64,000 nucleotides of DNA from Minisyncoccota bacterium (GTDB lineage: Bacteria; Patescibacteriota; Minisyncoccia; Phycocordibacterales; SBAW01), in NCBI GenBank assembly GCA_035546615.1, contig DASZWM010000006.1:1-64000 (forward strand), written 5' to 3'. Position numbers and translations under genes: made by a program. Below, piece by piece: positions 1,069 through 44,153 of this stretch; position 1 is the stretch's first letter; each line of letters starts with the position of its first letter. The notes under the pieces are model-generated. The model saw only the letters and a program-made list of their open reading frames with translations, made no database searches and was not told the origin of the DNA.

Positions 1069-1841
1069 TGAGCAAGGTTTCACCTTGCTCAGACTCAGAA
1101 CTACTCTTTATAGGATAGCCACTCCGTTATGTTTTGCCTGAAGTTCTCCGGCGTTTCAAAATACCGTGGGAGGGCCGTTGATTCCAATACTGTCGCTTCC
1201 GGGCGCCCACGCCCCAGGTAATCGGGATAGCTTGAGTACGCATACCTCTCCAAATATGCGTCGGTTTTTTTCCTATTCTTGATCCCGTGCTCTCTCCAGT
1301 TTTTGTCGATGAGTTTTACCGGATTCAGATGTATATACGAAAGGAGATATTTCAGATACCGGTCTTCTTCGGCGTGTTCCGATTTGAATACCCCCTGGAA
1401 CAGTGCGCCATTCCTTTCGTAGCGTTTATTAAAATACATCGTGTATCCCGTCGTCAGTTTCTGCATGAATCTGCTGATACCGTCGCCACCTTTCTCGCGT
1501 ACCAGCAGGTGAAAGTGGTTCGGCATCAGGCAATATGCAACGATATCGACGAGCGTCTCTCCGCGTTCTTGCGTCAACGCGCGCCCAAGCAAGGTGAAAT
1601 CTTTCGCAGGGTGGGCACGCTGCATATTGTCGATGCGAATTGGTTCTTTAGAATTGGCGAGATAGAGCAGGCATATAAAACGCTCGTAATCTTCCGTATG
1701 CACGAATACCTTTCTTTTGTCCGTGCCGCGGTTGTATAGGTGATAGAACTCTTGGGGAGCGAAAGGCGCGCGATTGGTCATAGGGGCAATATAGTAATGA
1801 ATCCCCATTTGAGCAAGGTTTAACCTTGCTCAAATGGGGAT
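1069..1841. mobile_element. tnpA-only IS200-like / RAYT unit bounded by near-identical palindromic hairpins
   Basis: Left hairpin TGAGCAAGGT-ttc-ACCTTGCTCA (~1069..1091). Right 41-nt perfect palindrome ATCCCCATTTGAGCAAGGTT-t-AACCTTGCTCAAATGGGGAT (~1801..1841) containing the tnpA start codon. Both share core GAGCAAGGTT. Confidence 0.6.
1101..1808 (-). CDS. IS200/IS605-family HUH (Y1) transposase, REP-associated tyrosine transposase (RAYT)-like
   Basis: YHLYNRG N-terminal motif; HUH motif in MPNHFHLLV; downstream Tyr-containing region. Locally lower GC. Flanked by hairpins. Confidence 0.7.
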   Translation of the reverse strand: MGIHYYIAPMTNRAPFAPQEFYHLYNRGTDKRKVFVHTEDYERFICLLYLANSKEPIRIDNMQRAHPAKDFTLLGRALTQERGETLVDIVAYCLMPNHFHLLVREKGGDGISRFMQKLTTGYTMYFNKRYERNGALFQGVFKSEHAEEDRYLKYLLSYIHLNPVKLIDKNWREHGIKNRKKTDAYLERYAYSSYPDYLGRGRPEATVLESTALPRYFETPENFRQNITEWLSYKE

Positions 1842-1871
1842 AGGAGAAAAAGAAGCTATATACTACTGGCT

Positions 1872-2891
1872 ATGGCGGTACGCGTTGCTATTAACGGGTT
1901 CGGGCGCATCGGACGCGCTTTTTTGCGCGCTTCCTGGGACGACCCGGCAGTAGAAGTAGTAGCTATCAACGACCTCGGCGATATCTCAAACTTGGTGTAT
2001 CTCCTCCAGTACGACAGCGTATACCGCACGTTCTCGCAGAAAGTCTCGGTTGAGAGCGGCCAGCTGATGGTTGGCGACAAGCATATCCATATCACCGCGG
2101 AAAAAGACCCGACCAAGCTGCCGTGGAGCTCTCTTAACATAGACGTGGCGGTAGAATCCACAGGAGTATTCGACTCCTACGAGAAGGCGAGCGCGCATCT
2201 GACCGCCGGCGCCAAGCATGTGGTCATTTCAGCTCCCGTGAAGGACGAAATGGCGGGTGCGGGGACAGTGCTCATGGGGGTGAACGAGGACAAGCTCGGC
2301 GCCTGCCAGATAACCTCCAACGCCTCGTGCACCACCAATTCAGTCTCGCCGCTCATCGCAATACTCGACGAAAAGATCGGCATCGAGAAGGCATTGCTCA
2401 ATACCACGCACGCCTATACCGCGACGCAGTCGATAGTCGACTCGCCGGTCAAGGGCTCCGACTTTCGCCGAGGCCGCGCCGCCGCGCAGAACATGTCGCC
2501 GTCATCGACGGGCGCCGCGGTCGCGGTGACAAAGGCGTACGAGCAGCTTACCGGAAAATTCGACGGCATTTCCATTCGCGTGCCGGTGGTGGCGGGCTCT
2601 ATCGCCGATGTTACCTTCCTCGCCAAGCGCGATACGACCGCCGAGGAAGTGAATTCGATACTCGAAGCCGCCGCACAAGAGGACCGCTGGAAGGGTATAT
2701 TCGACGCCACGCGCGAACAGCTGGTTTCGGGCGACATCATCGGCAACGGCCACGCGTCCATCGCCGACCTGGGGCTAACGCGCGTCGTGGGCGGCAACCT
2801 GGTGAAGGTCCTGGCCTGGTACGATAACGAAATGGGGTATACGCACACCCTCATCAGGCACGTAAAGAAAGCGGGCGCCCAAGCCAAGTAA
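1872..2891 (+). CDS. gap: Glyceraldehyde-3-phosphate dehydrogenase
   Basis: N-terminal NGFGRIGR Rossmann motif; active-site SNASCTTN; 339 aa. Confidence 0.92.
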   Translation: MAVRVAINGFGRIGRAFLRASWDDPAVEVVAINDLGDISNLVYLLQYDSVYRTFSQKVSVESGQLMVGDKHIHITAEKDPTKLPWSSLNIDVAVESTGVFDSYEKASAHLTAGAKHVVISAPVKDEMAGAGTVLMGVNEDKLGACQITSNASCTTNSVSPLIAILDEKIGIEKALLNTTHAYTATQSIVDSPVKGSDFRRGRAAAQNMSPSSTGAAVAVTKAYEQLTGKFDGISIRVPVVAGSIADVTFLAKRDTTAEEVNSILEAAAQEDRWKGIFDATREQLVSGDIIGNGHASIADLGLTRVVGGNLVKVLAWYDNEMGYTHTLIRHVKKAGAQAK

Positions 2892-16729: not shown

Positions 16730-17029
16730 ATGTGGAATATTGATTGGAGCTTAATAGGAATCGTAGGTCTTGCAGTAGCCACTATGTCTATTGCTATTAA
16801 GATTATCGGAGTACCTGACCAGATAAAAAGGAATTATCGTCGCAAATCAACGGAAGGAGTTTCTCTTTTATTCTATGTAATGTCTTTTGCCACTTATTTT
16901 CTCTGGGCATTATATGGATTTTTAAAAGATGATTGGGTTGTGTTTCTCGCTCAAGGTTCTTTAGGCTGTGTCACAAGTGGCATCATTCTTTGGCAATTTT
17001 TTGTGTATAGAAAAAACAAAAAGATATGA
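16730..17029 (+). CDS. SemiSWEET / PQ-loop family small transporter (AT-rich insert in pheST operon)
   Basis: 99 aa, 3 TM; architecture and motifs parallel to SemiSWEETs (…IGVPDQIKRNYRRKSTEGVSLLFYVM…LWALYGFLKDD…); stop overlaps pheT start (ATGA). Confidence 0.6.
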   Translation: MWNIDWSLIGIVGLAVATMSIAIKIIGVPDQIKRNYRRKSTEGVSLLFYVMSFATYFLWALYGFLKDDWVVFLAQGSLGCVTSGIILWQFFVYRKNKKI

Positions 17030-18849
17030 AAATCTCGCGCCGCTGGATTCAAAACTTTTTCAATGACGAACTGTCGAACACGCAGGCGCTTGCCGACGCG
17101 CTTACGTTCCACGCCTTCGAGATAGACGGCATCGAGCCGTATTCTGGACTTACGAAGTCCAGAATTTTGGACGAGATACTGGACGTTAAGGTTACCCCTA
17201 ACCGCGGGCACGATTGCCTGTGTCACCGCGGCATCGCAAAAGAACTTTCAGCCATTCTTAAGCTTCCGCTTAAGCAAGACCCGCTCGGCAAGAAGCCGGA
17301 GCTTGTCCCAGCTACCGATGCCGTTTCCGTAACGCTTGAGGACCCGGCGCTTAGCCCGCGCTACATCGCCGGATACATGAAGAACGTGAAGGTCGGTCCG
17401 TCGCCTGACTGGCTTGTAGAGGCCCTTGAAGCCATGGGCCAGCGCTCAATCAACAATGTCGTTGATGCGACGAACATGGTGATGTTCAATCTCGGCCAGC
17501 CCTTGCACGCCTTTGACGCGGGCAAGCTCGCGCAGAAAGACGGCAAATATGGCATCGTCGTCCGCAGGGCGCGTGCGGGAGAGAAGATCCTCGCGCTCGA
17601 CCAGAAAGAGTATGTCCTTCAGGATTCCATGCTCGTTATTGCCGACGGCAACAAGGACGAAGCTATCGGCATCGCCGGCGTGAAGGGCGGCACGCCGGCG
17701 GGCATTACCGAAGCGACGACCGACATCATCATCGAGTCCGCCAACTTCAACGGCGTGTCCGTCCGTAAGACCGCCCAGGCGCTGAAGCTGCGCACCGACG
17801 CGTCCAGCCGCTTTGAGCAGGGCCTCAGCCCCGAGCTGTGCGCATACGGCATGCAGCAGGTCGTTGATCTCATAAAAACAATCGCAAGCGGGGAACTGGT
17901 CGGCTTTGCCGATGTATATCCGGCGCCCCAAGGGCCCGCCTATGCTGCAGTATCGGTAGAGAAGGTCAATCAGATACTGGGTACTCAGCTCACCGGCACG
18001 GAGGTGGCGGACGCTTTTGCGCGCCTCGGCTTCGCATACAAAGAAGAGAATGGAGTATTCCAGGTCACGGTCCCGTTCGAGCGCCTCGACATAACGATCC
18101 CGGAAGATTTGGTCGAGGAGGTCGGCCGCATCGTCGGCTACGACAAGGTACCCGCTGTGCCTCTGCCTCCCATGCCCCCCTCTTCCCAAGCAAGCGCGAG
18201 CTTCTCGGCGACAGAGCGCGTCCGCGCGGATCTCATAAAGCAGGGATATTCGGAAGTTCTTACGTCCGTATTTTCAGACAAGGGCGAGCGCGCGGTGTTA
18301 AATAAAGTGGACAGCGTAAAGCCGTATTTGCGCAGCAATCTCACCGATGGACTTACCGAAGCTCTGAAAAAGAACATTCCGAACAAAGACCTGCTTGGAC
18401 TTAAGGAAGTAAAGCTGTTCGAGATAGGAACTGTCTGGAAAGGTGATAAGGAGGAAGTAGTGGTCGGCACCGTAAGCGAAAAGAAGCAGGCCGAAGAAAA
18501 AGCGCTGAGCGAATATGCGGCTGATTCGGCTCCTGTACAAGACCTGCCGCTTTCGCAAACGGAGCGGTACCAGTCATTCTCCAAGTATCCCTACATCGTG
18601 CGCGATATCGCTATGTGGACTCCTGCACGTACGACGCCCGAATCGGTTCAGGAACTTATACAGGCTGAGGCGGGGGAGTTGTGCACAAAAGTATCGCTCT
18701 TCGACCAGTTCCAAAAAGGAGAAAAGACTTCGCTCGCGTTCCGCCTAATATTCCAATCATTTGAAAAGACGCTCACGGAAGGGGATGCAAACCAGGCGAT
18801 GGAAAAGGTAGCGGCAAAACTGAAAGAAAAAGGCTTCGAGATCAGGTAA
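17026..18849 (+). CDS. pheT: Phenylalanyl-tRNA synthetase beta subunit (short, 607 aa)
   Basis: N-terminal tRNA-binding (VTPNRGHDCL), B5 domain, C-terminal FSKYPYIVRDIAMW anticodon-binding region. Confidence 0.88.
   Translation: MKISRRWIQNFFNDELSNTQALADALTFHAFEIDGIEPYSGLTKSRILDEILDVKVTPNRGHDCLCHRGIAKELSAILKLPLKQDPLGKKPELVPATDAVSVTLEDPALSPRYIAGYMKNVKVGPSPDWLVEALEAMGQRSINNVVDATNMVMFNLGQPLHAFDAGKLAQKDGKYGIVVRRARAGEKILALDQKEYVLQDSMLVIADGNKDEAIGIAGVKGGTPAGITEATTDIIIESANFNGVSVRKTAQALKLRTDASSRFEQGLSPELCAYGMQQVVDLIKTIASGELVGFADVYPAPQGPAYAAVSVEKVNQILGTQLTGTEVADAFARLGFAYKEENGVFQVTVPFERLDITIPEDLVEEVGRIVGYDKVPAVPLPPMPPSSQASASFSATERVRADLIKQGYSEVLTSVFSDKGERAVLNKVDSVKPYLRSNLTDGLTEALKKNIPNKDLLGLKEVKLFEIGTVWKGDKEEVVVGTVSEKKQAEEKALSEYAADSAPVQDLPLSQTERYQSFSKYPYIVRDIAMWTPARTTPESVQELIQAEAGELCTKVSLFDQFQKGEKTSLAFRLIFQSFEKTLTEGDANQAMEKVAAKLKEKGFEIR
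17141..17165. repeat. 25-nt perfect palindrome ATTCTGGACTTACGAAGTCCAGAAT inside pheT (codes YSGLTKSRI)
   Basis: Read directly; same core recurs at 43719 and 27626. Confidence 0.9.
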
Positions 18850-21913: not shown

Positions 21914-22225
21914 TCAGGCCGCGACGGGCGTCCGGCGCTTCTCGATTTCGGGCTTCCAAGCCGCCGTGAGCTCGGCGTACTCGTCATCGACCGGAGTACC
22001 GTCGATTCCCTTGGCCTGAGCTTCGCTGAAAAAGCCGTTGGAAATCGGGGCTTTCTTCAGATCGGCGGGTGCCCCGTTGTAGCTGCCGACGAGCTGTCCT
22101 AGGACGCAAGACTGGTCGTACTGAATGTCGAGTTCGCCGGTGTCGATATGACCGGCCCACCCGGGCATCAATTGGTCGAGCAAGGTAGCGCCTGCGGCTG
22201 CGCGTGCTGCTGAAACATGAAACAT
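21914..22225 (-). CDS. Hypothetical protein
   Basis: Start moved to Met preceded by GGAGGG RBS. Confidence 0.35.
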   Translation of the reverse strand: MFHVSAARAAAGATLLDQLMPGWAGHIDTGELDIQYDQSCVLGQLVGSYNGAPADLKKAPISNGFFSEAQAKGIDGTPVDDEYAELTAAWKPEIEKRRTPVAA

Positions 22226-27625: not shown

Positions 27626-27652
27626 TATTCTGGACTTCGTAAGTCCAGAATA
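27626..27652. repeat. Palindromic element copy TATTCTGGACTTCGTAAGTCCAGAATA (opposite centre orientation), abutting thrS stop codon
   Basis: 27-nt palindrome; centre CGT instead of ACG; intergenic between convergent genes. Confidence 0.9.
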
Positions 27653-42660: not shown

Positions 42661-43500
42661 TTGCTTTTCCCGCCCTCCTTTATACTGTGGAGTATGTATC
42701 CTCCTGTTTCTGACCTGCTCGCAGAGCTCTCTTTATTTCCCGGAAGGGAAGACGGCTTGCGGAAAATTAAAAGGTATAGCAATGAGAAAGTAGCTTTTTA
42801 CCGCTCTTCTGATTTTTCTCATAGCAAGAGAGTGGCGTGGCTTGTATATAGTCTCATCCCATTATTATCAGAGGTAGATAAGACTTTTGATATAGGGCGC
42901 GCTGTGGCTATGGCGCTCGTGCACGACGATGCTGAACTGATAACGGGTGATCATCAAGCTGGTAATAAAAGCAAAATGACCAAAGAGCAGCTTGCTGCAA
43001 TTGCTGACGAAGAACGTGAAGCGATTGCCGCTTTGGCAAAGAGATATCCAAAAACTCTCGGCGGATATGTCTATCAGGACCTAGTACAAGATCTCGCTGA
43101 TCTAAAGAATTCTGAAGCTCATTTTGTTAAGTACTTTGATCGTTTTGATGCTTTGGGGGAGACTTACCATGAACTCTTTGCAGGGAATGTGGTTTGGACG
43201 CAAAACGTAGTTAATGAGTGGGGCATCATTCCCACACCTTTTATGTATTACTACGATAGGCTGCCGCCCATGGTTGAGAAGTATCCGATCCTGACTGCTT
43301 TAAAAGGAAAACATGTATTCTTCGATGTCCCTGAAGCCAGAGAATGGGAATCATTTGTCCTGACTCGTCAGCCTCATACAAAGGATTCAATACTTGCGTC
43401 TACTGGTCATAGGCAATATGATGCCTGGCGCTCTGTTGTTATTGATTCTGCAGATCAAGAAGAAATCGCAAATCTCTACTCTCAACAAGAATACCTATGA
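42661..43500 (+). CDS. HD-domain phosphohydrolase (YfbR/5'-deoxynucleotidase-like), AT-rich insert
   Basis: H...HD motif (ALVHDDAELITGDH); gene visibly AT-rich relative to flanks; stop overlaps trmD start (ATGA). Confidence 0.65.
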   Translation: MLFPPSFILWSMYPPVSDLLAELSLFPGREDGLRKIKRYSNEKVAFYRSSDFSHSKRVAWLVYSLIPLLSEVDKTFDIGRAVAMALVHDDAELITGDHQAGNKSKMTKEQLAAIADEEREAIAALAKRYPKTLGGYVYQDLVQDLADLKNSEAHFVKYFDRFDALGETYHELFAGNVVWTQNVVNEWGIIPTPFMYYYDRLPPMVEKYPILTALKGKHVFFDVPEAREWESFVLTRQPHTKDSILASTGHRQYDAWRSVVIDSADQEEIANLYSQQEYL

Positions 43501-44153
43501 ATTTCCATGTCGTAACGCTTTTTCCGGAAGTTATCGAGGCCTATACGAACGCTTCGATACTGGGCCGTGCCCAGAAAGAGAAGAAGTTTTCCGTTAAGAC
43601 CTACCAGCTGCGCGATTTCGTCAGCAATAAATGGGGCAAGGTAGACGAGCGCCCATACGGCGGCGGCCCGGGCATGGTTATCCAGGCCGAGCCGGTCATC
43701 AGGGCAGTCCAGAAAATATCTGGACTTACGAAGTCCAGAATTCGGCCGAAGGTCATTATTACTGCGGCAGGCGGCAAGCCTTTGACCAACGCGTATGCCA
43801 AAGCGCTTTTGAAGCAAAAGGACGTCATAATCGTTTGCGGCAGGTACGAAGGCATCGACGCCCGGGCAAAAAAAGTGCTCAAGGCCGAAGAAGTCTCCGT
43901 TGGGCCGTACATTCTGACCGGGGGCGAGGTTCCGGCCTTGGCAATCATTGATGCGACCGCTCGGCAGATAAAGGGCGTTTTGGGCAAGTTCGAGTCCCTC
44001 GAGGAGTCCCGGGTCGCAAGCCACGAGATATACACCCGCCCCGAGGTCCTGAAAGCAAAAGGAAAGAACTACGCGGTCCCGAAGGTCCTCCTCTCCGGCC
44101 ATCATGCAAAGATGGACCAGTGGAAAGAAAAGAAACGCAGCAAACCCCTATAA
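43497..44153 (+). CDS. trmD: tRNA (guanine37-N1)-methyltransferase
   Basis: MNFHVVTLFPEV...; RPYGGGPGMV; CGRYEGIDAR SPOUT-knot motifs. Confidence 0.9.
   Translation: MNFHVVTLFPEVIEAYTNASILGRAQKEKKFSVKTYQLRDFVSNKWGKVDERPYGGGPGMVIQAEPVIRAVQKISGLTKSRIRPKVIITAAGGKPLTNAYAKALLKQKDVIIVCGRYEGIDARAKKVLKAEEVSVGPYILTGGEVPALAIIDATARQIKGVLGKFESLEESRVASHEIYTRPEVLKAKGKNYAVPKVLLSGHHAKMDQWKEKKRSKPL
43719..43739. repeat. Palindromic element copy TCTGGACTTACGAAGTCCAGA inside trmD (codes ISGLTKSRI)
   Basis: Identical 21-nt core and identical reading frame as the pheT copy. Confidence 0.9.

What the first reader, a model, noticed from the sequence alone, without database searches (positions are those of the whole stretch)
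1069..1841. IS200/RAYT-like transposase whose start codon is buried in a 41-nt perfect palindrome; matching hairpin at the other end
The HUH/Y1 transposase (YHLYNRG, HFHLL) is bracketed by hairpins sharing the core TTGAGCAAGGTT/AACCTTGCTCAA. The right one (1801..1841) is a perfect 20+20 palindrome that contains the tnpA ATG, which would sequester the initiation region. The left hairpin sits 10 nt after the tnpA stop. This is the single-strand hairpin end architecture of IS200/IS605 elements and of REP-RAYT units. At 235 aa the protein is longer than typical IS200 TnpA and fits the RAYT class.
Basis: partly seen in the sequence, partly recalled or inferred. Interest (0 to 1): 0.5.

Follow-up and report, generated by a model that had tools for sequence, protein, structure and literature searches.

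The report
RAYT-like nuclease gene with matching hairpins
A single-copy relative of the REP-associated tyrosine transposases, found across Patescibacteria, sits between two matching DNA hairpins, and in most relatives a third copy of the hairpin lies in frame inside the gene and changes in step with the outer two.

Summary
The sequence features are real. There is a 235-codon ORF (1101-1808, minus strand) with an HUH motif and a YIHLNP motif. A perfect 20+1+20 palindrome lies at 1801-1841 and a 10+3+10 hairpin at 1069-1091. The two share 24 of 25 bases.

The claim that the start codon is buried in the palindrome is probably wrong. Homologues start at Met10 (ATG 1781-1779). A -10 box lies about 6 nt upstream of that ATG and there is no Shine-Dalgarno sequence. 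The mRNA is therefore probably leaderless, and the palindrome sits over the -35 region, upstream of the transcript.

In 80 related Patescibacteria loci nearly every gene has the same layout, with the core CAAGGT-NNN-ACCTTG. In about 50 of them a third, in-frame copy lies about 165 nt into the gene. The window keeps only a decayed remnant of it.

The hairpins of one locus match each other but differ between lineages. Loop orientation flips freely. The gene is usually single-copy, stays at the same genomic site within a clade, and is sometimes inverted there.

Best reading: a domesticated RAYT-like cassette with few cognate hairpins, not an IS200 element. I rate it a new variant of a known kind.

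The parts
1069..1091 (.). Hairpin at the 3' end of the gene: TGAGCAAGGT-TTC-ACCTTGCTCA, 10-bp stem and 3-nt loop. It starts 9 nt after the stop codon.
   Evidence: I9, 100% complementary; ssDNA fold -10.2 to -10.4 kcal/mol, z -4.8 to -5.0. The equivalent hairpin is present at or just after the stop codon in most of 80 related loci.
1101..1781 (-). Coding sequence of the Y1/HUH enzyme as supported by homologues: 226 aa, ATG at 1781-1779, TAG at 1103-1101.
1782..1808 (-). Nine extra codons of the mechanical ORF (MGIHYYIAP), starting at the ATG inside the palindrome. Probably not translated.
   Evidence: These residues are not conserved in any homologue and have pLDDT below 50. They lie upstream of the inferred -10 box and transcription start.
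1509..1517 (-). HUH motif codons (His98-Phe99-His100 in ORF numbering).
   Evidence: Read directly from the sequence. These columns are invariant in 47 homologues.
1320..1337 (-). Y-motif YIHLNP. Tyr158 is the candidate catalytic tyrosine, and Y-x3-NP is the class-2 (RAYT-type) signature.
   Evidence: Y158, H160, L161, N162 and P163 are invariant. The motif aligns with DYIYINP of 4er8. The motif definition comes from PMC6006769, Table 1.
1588..1609 (.). Decayed remnant of the in-frame internal hairpin: AGCAAGGTGAAATCTTTCGCAG on the + strand. It encodes ..AKDFTLLG.. where relatives have xQGxTLx. One arm is intact and the other has mutated.
   Evidence: D1, 73% identical to the 3' hairpin; it does not fold, z -0.06. 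An intact internal hairpin lies at the homologous position, +163 to +190 nt from the ATG, in about 50 of 80 loci.
1788..1793 (-). -10-like hexamer TATATT, 6 nt upstream of ATG 1781. This points to a leaderless transcript.
   Evidence: Read from the sequence. The family-wide pattern is: 48 of 63 loci against a 3.7% control rate, with a modal distance of 6 nt. The consensus scanner did not report a promoter here because the -35 matches only 3 of 6, so its function is inferred.
1811..1816 (-). -35-like TTGCTC, 17 nt upstream of the -10 box. It is formed by the gene-proximal arm of the palindrome.
   Evidence: Read from the sequence. This is an inference and a weak match (3 of 6). In relatives many promoters have an extended -10 (TGnTATAAT), and the position of the hairpin relative to the -10 varies.
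1801..1841 (.). Hairpin at the 5' end of the gene: a perfect 20+1+20 palindrome, ATCCCCATTTGAGCAAGGTT-T-AACCTTGCTCAAATGGGGAT. It lies between the divergent Y1 gene and gap (ATG 1872).
   Evidence: I2.: -22.2 to -22.5 kcal/mol, z -9.9. The equivalent hairpin is usually centred 24-60 nt upstream of the ATG in related loci.

Best explanation
The region is a vertically inherited, normally single-copy cassette. It encodes a RAYT-like Y1/HUH single-strand DNA endonuclease-ligase together with its own cognate palindromes.

Shown by the data:
- The protein has the HUH and Y-x3-NP motifs and the fold of E. coli TnpA-REP.
- Across Patescibacteria its gene is bracketed by perfect or near-perfect hairpins with the core CAAGGT-NNN-ACCTTG.
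- In most lineages a third copy lies in frame inside the gene, in a poorly ordered helical insert between helix alphaA and strand beta2.
- The copies of one locus share the same outer stem, and that stem differs between lineages.
- Loop orientation flips at all three positions.
- The gene keeps its chromosomal site within clades and is found there in either orientation.
- Its promoter's -10 box abuts the ATG, so the upstream hairpin lies over the -35 region.

Inferred:
- The enzyme recognises these hairpins when they extrude on single-stranded DNA, for example on the lagging-strand template, and cleaves and rejoins next to them, as TnpA-REP does with REPs.
- This activity, or palindrome-driven template switching or gene conversion, keeps the copies of a locus identical, flips their loops, occasionally inverts or moves the cassette, and seeds a few solo hairpins elsewhere.
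- Binding at the upstream hairpin represses the enzyme's own leaderless promoter.

In this window the two outer hairpins are intact, the internal one has decayed, and there is no other copy within 64 kb.
For: Enzyme identity:
- Pfam Y1_Tnp scores 37.4 bits against a cutoff of 23.
- H98, H100 and Y158-x3-N162-P163 are invariant.
- The AF2 model has pLDDT 85.

Conserved hairpin layout:
- Searches show upstream and downstream hairpins in nearly all 80 loci and an internal one in about 50.
- Hairpins with an AGG core number 132 in 29.8 kb next to the genes, against 58 in 564 kb elsewhere in the loci. Most of those 58 are the internal copies.

Concerted evolution:
- Upstream and downstream arms are identical in 64% of loci, against 1.9% between loci.
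- Upstream and internal arms are identical in 71% of loci, against 3.1% between loci.
- Lineages with a different core (CATAGGACTCCCCTATG, CCCGAGGACCGTCCTCGGG and others) carry that core at all three positions. The peptide encoded by the internal copy changes accordingly: QGxTL, RGxTS, PIGLPYV, EGRSF.

DNA-level rather than RNA-level action:
- Both loop orientations occur at each position.
- Mismatches are not dominated by G.T.
- The upstream hairpin lies upstream of the inferred transcription start.

Domesticated behaviour:
- Recurrent neighbours are seen, for example gap on one side, or gyrA and a methyltransferase on either side. Both orientations occur at the same site.
- Divergence of the Y1 protein is similar to that of the neighbouring GAPDH and RpiB.
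- GC3 of the gene equals host GC, and gene GC tracks host GC with r = 0.88.
- In the two genomes with two copies, each copy has its own hairpin type (L018/L020, L022/L045).

Solo copies:
- Several solo hairpins of the cognate type lie within the loci (L043, L049, L064).
- In a metagenome scan, 46 matches extend the palindrome by at least 2 bp, against about 8 expected by chance.
Against: - No cleavage site, guide tetranucleotide or target sequence could be found next to the hairpins, so the catalytic step is inferred only from homology.
- The protein falls below the NCBIfam RAYT equivalog cutoff (49.9 bits against 80).
- By its motifs it resembles TnpAY1 subclass 2.1, for which PMC6006769 reported no associated REPs.
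- Copy number of the hairpin is very low. There are no extra copies in this 64-kb window. Active dissemination, the defining REP/REPIN behaviour, is therefore not demonstrated.
- Most metagenome matches to the 15-mer core are likely chance hits, and they cannot be tied to genomes that carry the gene.
- Perfect palindromes could equally be double-stranded binding sites for a dimeric protein.
- About 25 of 80 loci, including this window, lack an intact internal hairpin, so it is dispensable.
- GAPDH identity between L004 and L056 is 82% while Y1 identity is only 50%, so strict co-inheritance does not hold everywhere.
Confidence: 0.6

Rival explanations
1. It is an autonomous IS200/IS605-type insertion sequence. 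The two hairpins are its left and right ends, and the transposase excises and reinserts the whole unit as a single-stranded circle.
For: The protein has the Y1/HUH fold and the Pfam Y1_Tnp domain. Hairpins lie at both ends of the gene. Different clades carry the cassette at different chromosomal sites, and a few genomes have two copies. L031 carries a partial repeat of the 5' flank (hairpin plus -10 region) after the 3' end, which resembles a circle junction.
Against: - The Y motif is Y-x3-NP rather than the Y-x3-Q of IS200, and the protein is 226 aa rather than about 150.
- The ends are symmetric palindromes with no distinct left and right ends and no conserved flanking target tetranucleotide.
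- Copies within one genome are only about 50% identical and have different hairpins.
- The site is conserved within clades, divergence is like that of housekeeping genes, and GC3 matches the host.
- There is no tnpB partner.
Confidence: 0.1
2. The palindromes are regulatory sites read as duplex DNA or as RNA, not recombination substrates. The Y1-derived protein, or a host factor, binds them as a dimer to repress the promoter and punctuate transcription. The enzyme may no longer cut DNA at them.
For: The palindromes are perfect and symmetric, as dimer operators are. The upstream one overlaps the -35 region of a leaderless promoter. The downstream one abuts the stop codon, where it could stabilise or end transcripts. 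Copy number elsewhere is very low. The protein has an extra roughly 70-aa helical C-terminal domain. In TnpAY1 subclass 2.1 the C-terminal domains include HTH-like modules.
Against: - HUH and Tyr are invariant in 47 divergent homologues, which argues for retained catalysis.
- The third copy lies inside the coding region, and solo copies exist elsewhere. A promoter operator does not explain either.
- Whole loops flip between relatives (TCG to CGA), which fits strand-exchange or template-switch events at the hairpin.
- There is no T-run after the 3' hairpin.
- G.T pairs are not enriched, as they would be for an RNA structure.
Confidence: 0.2
3. The hairpins belong to a general host repeat or terminator population and lie next to this gene by coincidence.
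For: The window contains many other perfect hairpins: 38 with a stem of at least 9 bp, against 1-4 in shuffles. It also holds a second unrelated repeated hairpin family.
Against: The same core hairpin brackets the homologue in nearly all 80 genomes whatever the neighbouring genes are, and it co-varies with a copy inside the gene. It is about 40-fold denser next to the gene than elsewhere in the loci.
Confidence: 0.03

Closest known systems
REP-associated tyrosine transposase (RAYT / TnpA-REP) in a REPtron, e.g. E. coli YafM, PDB 4ER8
   Different: There is no 5' GT[AG]G guide at the foot of the hairpin. The stems are perfect and symmetric rather than imperfect. Genomic copy number is very low, with none elsewhere in the 64-kb window. 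The protein scores below the NCBIfam RAYT equivalog cutoff. It has a roughly 25-aa insert before the HUH strand and a roughly 70-aa C-terminal domain. A third hairpin sits at a fixed position inside the gene.
TnpAY1 subclass 2.4 (Bertels group 4) with REPs inserted in frame in tnpA-REP (Quentin et al. 2018, PMC6006769)
   Same: A cognate palindrome lies inside the enzyme's own coding sequence without breaking the reading frame. It encodes a peripheral, variable surface segment.
   Different: [quoted passage not shown] Those REPs carry GT[AG]G feet. The motifs are NH[IFV]H, WQ and YIxNNP, and the hosts are Cyanobacteria and Bacteroidetes. Here the hairpin sits at one fixed position N-terminal to HUH, about residue 55-60 of the 226-aa protein. 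The motifs are NHFH, FQ and YIHLNP, and the hosts are Patescibacteria.
TnpAY1 subclass 2.1 (Bertels group 1; 'TIRYT')
   Same: The diagnostic motifs listed in Table 1 of PMC6006769 match by eye: NH[YF]H, FQ, Y[IV]HLNP and an SS motif in the tail. The median length is about 238 aa and genomic copy number is low.
   Different: Subclass 2.1 was reported to have no REP-like sequences next to the gene, and instead terminal inverted repeats in some members. Its C-terminal domains are HTH- or DnaA-like. Here the hairpins are nearly universal, and no Pfam HTH domain was detected. Assignment to this subclass could not be tested with the authors' HMMs.
IS200/IS605 TnpA (IS608, ISDra2)
   Different: IS200 has the Y-x3-Q motif, a protein of about 130-155 aa, asymmetric left and right ends with a target tetra- or pentanucleotide, many identical copies, and often tnpB. 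None of these is seen here.
Rolling-circle replication initiators whose origin lies inside their own gene (pT181 RepC, phiX174 gene A). This comparison is from my own knowledge and was not tested.
   Same: An HUH enzyme whose cognate hairpin site is embedded in the coding sequence of the enzyme itself.
   Different: Those are replicons with a single origin and a different HUH clade. This is a chromosomal, site-conserved gene with two further copies of the site outside the gene. The comparison is an analogy only.

Membership tests
HUH / Y1 transposase superfamily (Pfam PF01797 Y1_Tnp) | Profile match above the curated gathering score | tested here: met
   37.4 bits against a cutoff of 23, E 3.1e-9.
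HUH / Y1 transposase superfamily (Pfam PF01797 Y1_Tnp) | HUH metal-binding motif and a single catalytic Tyr on the C-terminal helix of the core | tested here: met
   H98-F-H100 and Y158 are invariant in 47 homologues. Y158 aligns with the Tyr of DYIYINP in 4er8. Catalysis itself was not tested.
HUH / Y1 transposase superfamily (Pfam PF01797 Y1_Tnp) | TnpA-type fold | tested here: met
RAYT / TnpA-REP | Class-2 Y-x3-NP motif | tested here: met
   YIHLNP is invariant. The motif definition is in PMC6006769.
RAYT / TnpA-REP | NCBIfam NF047646 equivalog score at or above the cutoff | tested here: not met
   49.9 bits against a cutoff of 80.
RAYT / TnpA-REP | Gene flanked by its cognate palindromes (REPtron arrangement) | tested here: met
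   Met in the window and in nearly all 80 related loci.
RAYT / TnpA-REP | REP has a conserved 5' GT[AG]G guide tetranucleotide at the foot of the hairpin | tested here: not met
   Logos anchored on the hairpin centre show no conserved positions outside CAAGGT..ACCTTG.
RAYT / TnpA-REP | Cognate REP/REPIN dispersed at high copy number in the genome | tested here: inconclusive
   There are no further copies in the 64-kb window. Roughly a dozen solo copies lie in 564 kb of related loci. Extended palindromes are in excess in the metagenome scan, but they cannot be assigned to genomes. Whole genomes could not be scanned.
RAYT / TnpA-REP | Single copy, vertical inheritance, housekeeping-like evolution | tested here: met
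   There is one copy in the window. Sites are conserved within clades. Divergence is similar to that of the neighbours. GC3 matches the host. Only 2 of the sampled genomes show two copies, and those are divergent.
IS200/IS605 insertion sequence | Short TnpA (about 130-155 aa) with the Y-x3-Q motif | tested here: not met
   The protein is 226 aa and has YIHLNP.
IS200/IS605 insertion sequence | Multiple near-identical copies per genome | tested here: not met
   Copies within one genome are about 50% identical to the query and carry different hairpins (L018/L020, L022/L045). The window holds one copy.
IS200/IS605 insertion sequence | Distinct left- and right-end imperfect hairpins with a conserved target or cleavage tetranucleotide | tested here: not met
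   The ends are the same symmetric palindrome, and no flanking motif is conserved.
TnpAY1 subclass 2.4 (in-frame REP in tnpA) | [quoted passage not shown] | tested here: not met
   The internal hairpin lies N-terminal to HUH, and the motifs are NHFH, FQ and YIHLNP.
TnpAY1 subclass 2.1 | Match to the subclass HMMs of Quentin et al., with an HTH- or DnaA-like C-terminal domain and no REPs | not testable with these tools
   The motifs agree by eye, but the authors' HMMs are not available here. No Pfam HTH domain was detected. Hairpins are present, contrary to the published description.

The most novel reading that the evidence does not exclude
The copy of the hairpin inside the gene is not a tolerated insertion. 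It is a working cis site and possibly the master copy.

Every hairpin type in the family keeps the core NNR-GGN...NCC-YNN, and in the internal copy GGN is always a glycine codon at a protein turn. The coding constraint of the enzyme's own gene may therefore fix the invariant AGG/CCT core that all other copies follow.

The enzyme would then cut and rejoin between three equivalent sites: upstream, internal and downstream. That could flip loops, invert the cassette, or excise the promoter together with the N-terminal coding segment. The result would be a self-limiting DNA switch built into a domesticated transposase, widespread in the small genomes of Patescibacteria.
Probability: 0.25. Interest if true: 0.75.

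Novelty: new variant of a known kind. Interest (0 to 1): 0.6.

Why it matters
RAYT-REP systems are the standard example of a domesticated transposase living with its own short repeats, but their function is still unknown. They have been described almost only in Proteobacteria, Cyanobacteria and Bacteroidetes.

This work shows a very large family in Patescibacteria: 1,130 clusters at 50% identity with E <= 1e-30. It is conserved at about the level of housekeeping genes. It has a minimal repeat population, and in most lineages one of the three cognate sites lies inside the enzyme's own reading frame and evolves in step with the other two.

That gives a compact, testable system of one small protein and one 19-25-nt hairpin. 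It could be used to ask what such enzymes do for a host with a reduced genome, and how enzyme and site stay matched.

For annotation, the gene should not be called an IS200 transposase, and its start codon should be the second ATG.

Tried and rejected
- Other copies of the window's hairpin. I searched the window for GAGCAAGGT with up to one mismatch and ran a full scan for perfect hairpins. Only the two known sites and one half-site at 22178 were found.
- Rfam. A search of 900-2000 gave only a chance sub-threshold mir-135 match on the palindrome, so no known RNA family is present.
- Promoter and terminator scan. It reported no promoter or terminator at the hairpins. The promoter proposed here rests on the comparative pattern.
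- Empty site. I looked for an unoccupied site with a solo hairpin in L031, between the two genes that flank the cassette in L010, L013 and L017. No hairpin is there, but the genomes are too distant to be informative.
- Metagenome scan. The scan with the 15-mer core was meant to measure dispersal. Most hits are probably chance and cannot be linked to genomes carrying the gene, so it shows only an excess of extended palindromes. L165 and L166 carry the window's exact stem but are not close relatives of the window.
- Low GC as a sign of recent horizontal transfer. I rejected this. The roughly 9-point dip is family-wide and GC3 equals host GC.
- T-arm-like RNA motif. I considered this for GGTTCGACC and rejected it, because the loop varies freely and flips.
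- Sequence search of the PDB. It gave only marginal hits (E 0.17 to 4er8). The relationship needed fold comparison to establish.
Full report
**1. The observation**

The window holds an ORF at 1101..1808 on the minus strand, 235 aa. It encodes YHLYNRG, an HFH motif (codons 1509-1517) and YIHLNP (1320-1337).

At 1801-1841 there is a perfect palindrome of 20+1+20 nt. At 1069-1091 there is a perfect hairpin with a 10-bp stem and a 3-nt loop. The two share TTTGAGCAAGGTTT[C/A]ACCTTGCTCA, 24 of 25 bases.

As single-stranded DNA the two fold at -22 and -10 kcal/mol, with z-scores of -9.9 and about -5. None of 200 shuffles does as well. The sequence description is therefore correct, apart from a spacing of 9 nt rather than 10 after the stop codon.

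No further full copy of the hairpin exists in the 64-kb window, and there is no second copy of the gene.

**2. The protein**

- Pfam Y1_Tnp scores above its gathering threshold.
- The NCBIfam model for REP-associated tyrosine transposases matches but stays below its equivalog cutoff, 49.9 bits against 80.
- More than 7,800 homologues were scored. All the named ones come from Patescibacteria (Paceibacterota and relatives), typically 220-230 aa long and 55-65% identical.
- A profile search finds 1,130 clusters at 50% identity with E <= 1e-30.
- H98, H100, Y154, Y158, N162, P163 and an SS pair in the tail are invariant.
- An AlphaFold model built from the alignment has pLDDT 85.

The protein is a class-2 (RAYT-type, Y-x3-NP) member of the Y1/HUH superfamily, not an IS200-type TnpA.

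**3. The start codon**

Five results argue against this.

- The identical protein in NCBI is called at 226 aa.
- Met10 is the nearly invariant first residue in the alignment.
- The homologous position is ATG in about 65 of 80 loci.
- Residues 1-12 are not modelled with any confidence.
- In 48 of 63 loci a hexamer matching TATAAT at 5 of 6 positions or better ends 5-10 nt (most often 6) upstream of the family ATG. The control rate is 3.7%. None of the 63 loci has an SD-like motif.

In the window the layout on the gene strand is TTGCTC, then 17 nt, then TATATT, then 6 nt, then ATG at 1781. I infer a leaderless mRNA that begins at or next to ATG 1781. On this model the ATG at 1808 lies between the -35 and -10 elements and is not transcribed. 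The palindrome then overlaps the -35 region instead of sequestering a ribosome-binding site.

**4. The hairpins in other genomes**

A scan of one genome per species returned 596 confirmed homologous stretches, and I kept 80 loci. Nearly all have two hairpins:

- one usually centred 24-60 nt upstream of the ATG;
- one at or just after the stop codon.

Both have the core CAAGGT-(1 to 5 nt)-ACCTTG and 2-15 further stem pairs.

Unexpectedly, about 50 of the 80 loci also carry a third hairpin inside the gene, centred 163-190 nt after the ATG and in frame. It usually encodes xQGxTLx. It falls in a low-confidence helical insert between helix alphaA and the strand that precedes the HUH motif.

The window has only a decayed remnant at 1588-1609. 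One arm is intact and the sequence no longer folds.

Hairpins with this core are about 40 times denser next to the gene than in the remaining 564 kb of the loci.

**5. Concerted evolution**

The outer stem differs between lineages: TACAAGG, CCAGCAAGG, TGAGCAAGG, TTCCGAGG and others.

Within a locus the arms match far more often than between loci.

| Comparison | Identical within a locus | Identical between loci |
|---|---|---|
| Upstream vs downstream | 64% | 1.9% |
| Upstream vs internal | 71% | 3.1% |

Lineages with a quite different palindrome have it at all three positions, for example CATAGGACTCCCCTATG, CCCGAGGACCGTCCTCGGG or CCCAAGGGCGGTCCTTGGG. The encoded peptide changes with it: PIGLPYV, TRGPSSG, PQGRSLG. 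The DNA sequence, not the peptide, is therefore what is kept in step.

One feature is constant in all types. A glycine codon GGN sits at the AGG of the core.

Both loop orientations (TCG/CGA, C/G, TTT/AAA) occur at every position, and they differ between close relatives at the same site. Mismatches are not dominated by G.T. Together with the position of the upstream copy ahead of the transcription start, this points to a function at the DNA level.

**6. Genomic behaviour**

- The neighbours recur within clades. In the window and five other loci the gene lies next to gap. In nine loci it lies between gyrA and a methyltransferase-like gene.
- At both of these sites the cassette is found in either orientation. 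L042 is inverted relative to L014 and L064. L041 and L047 are inverted relative to seven others.
- Divergence of the Y1 protein is comparable to that of the adjacent GAPDH, RpiB and methyltransferase.
- The gene's GC is always about 9 points below its flanks, but it tracks host GC (r = 0.88). In the window its GC3 (0.599) equals flank GC (0.597). The local GC dip is therefore not a sign of recent transfer.
- The two genomes with two copies have divergent proteins, each with its own hairpin type.

These are the properties described for domesticated RAYTs (PMC5581495), not for insertion sequences.

**7. Dispersal of the hairpin**

A few solo or doublet hairpins of the cognate type lie 0.7-2.3 kb from the gene in L043, L049 and L064.

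A metagenome scan for CAAGGTTCGACCTTG returned 133 matches, of which only 8 lie next to a Y1 gene. The palindrome extends by at least 2 bp in 46 of them, against about 8 expected by chance. Those extending by at least 3 bp are more often intergenic: 44%, against 26% for those with 0-1 bp of extension.

Solo copies therefore exist.

No guide or target tetranucleotide is conserved beside the hairpins.

**8. Comparison with the literature**

Quentin et al. 2018 (PMC6006769) divide the family into 12 subclasses.

- By motifs (NH[YF]H, FQ, Y[IV]HLNP, SS tail, about 238 aa) this protein resembles their subclass 2.1. They found no REPs for that subclass.
- In-frame REPs inside the gene were reported only for subclass 2.4. 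[quoted passage not shown]
- Their data set does not mention Patescibacteria.
- Two full-text searches found no paper linking RAYT, REPIN or IS200 with Patescibacteria.

The window's element is thus a member of a large family that, as far as I could find, has not been described. The family combines subclass 2.1-like protein motifs with a REPtron-like arrangement and a cognate hairpin at a fixed position in frame.

**9. Mechanism**

Shown:

- enzyme family, motifs and fold;
- the conserved set of three hairpins and their concerted change;
- loop flips;
- conservation of the chromosomal site, with inversion;
- promoter geometry.

Inferred:

- The enzyme binds the hairpins on single-stranded DNA and cuts and rejoins beside them, as TnpA-REP does.
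- This activity, or template switching at the palindromes, homogenises the copies, flips loops, inverts the cassette and seeds rare solo copies.
- Occupancy of the upstream hairpin lowers transcription of the gene.

Confidences are 0.6 for this explanation, 0.2 for a purely regulatory role of the palindromes, 0.1 for an autonomous IS and 0.03 for coincidence.

**10. Verdict**

It is not an IS200-type element, there is no occlusion of the start codon, and there is no REP swarm in the window.

The comparative result lifts the finding above a routine transposase annotation. That result is a family-wide set of three matching hairpins, one of them coding, evolving in concert in small genomes. It remains a variant of a known kind of system.

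Noticed in passing
window 17141-17165, 27626-27652, 43719-43739: A second, unrelated perfect hairpin occurs three times in the window: (TA)TTCTGGACTT-ACG/CGT-AAGTCCAGAA(TA). Its loop is also flipped between copies. One copy is intergenic. The other two fall inside long ORFs (17026..18849 + and 43497..44153 +, or 43482..44105 -). No second Y1 gene is present in the window.
   Followed up: partly
window 1857-1874: The divergent gap gene (ATG 1872) also has a TATATA/TATACT box ending 7-9 nt before its ATG and no SD sequence. Leaderless starts may be common in this genome. The 41-nt palindrome lies about 30 nt upstream of gap's ATG and could affect both promoters.
   Followed up: no
L031 4657-4735: After the 3' end of the Y1 gene there is an imperfect hairpin, then a copy of the 5'-flank motif TTTTTATGGTATAAT (the -10 region), then another hairpin. 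This is a partial repeat of the upstream end placed downstream. It looks like a relic of a tandem or circle junction.
   Followed up: no
L191 384-1107; L085 246-1055: In a more distant homologue (40% identity, L191) the in-frame internal hairpin lies near residue 165, after the Y motif, rather than near residue 55. L085 carries five copies of the hairpin in and around one gene.
   Followed up: no
L104, L105, L107, L158, L193 and other metagenome loci (match positions listed): Many matches to CAAGGTCGAACCTTG that are not near a Y1 gene are followed about 10-15 nt later by AAAGG(T) or CCTTAAGG. L158 has two identical units 719 nt apart. This may be another repeated element that shares the AAGGT/ACCTT motif.
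   Followed up: no
window 1-64000: The window has 38 perfect hairpins with a stem of at least 9 bp and a loop of at most 5 nt, against 1-4 in mononucleotide shuffles. Many are GC-rich and look like terminators.
   Followed up: no
L004 vs L056: GAPDH is 82% identical between these two loci, but the adjacent Y1 proteins are only 50% identical and RpiB about 56%. This suggests transfer or replacement of either gap or the cassette in one lineage.
   Followed up: no
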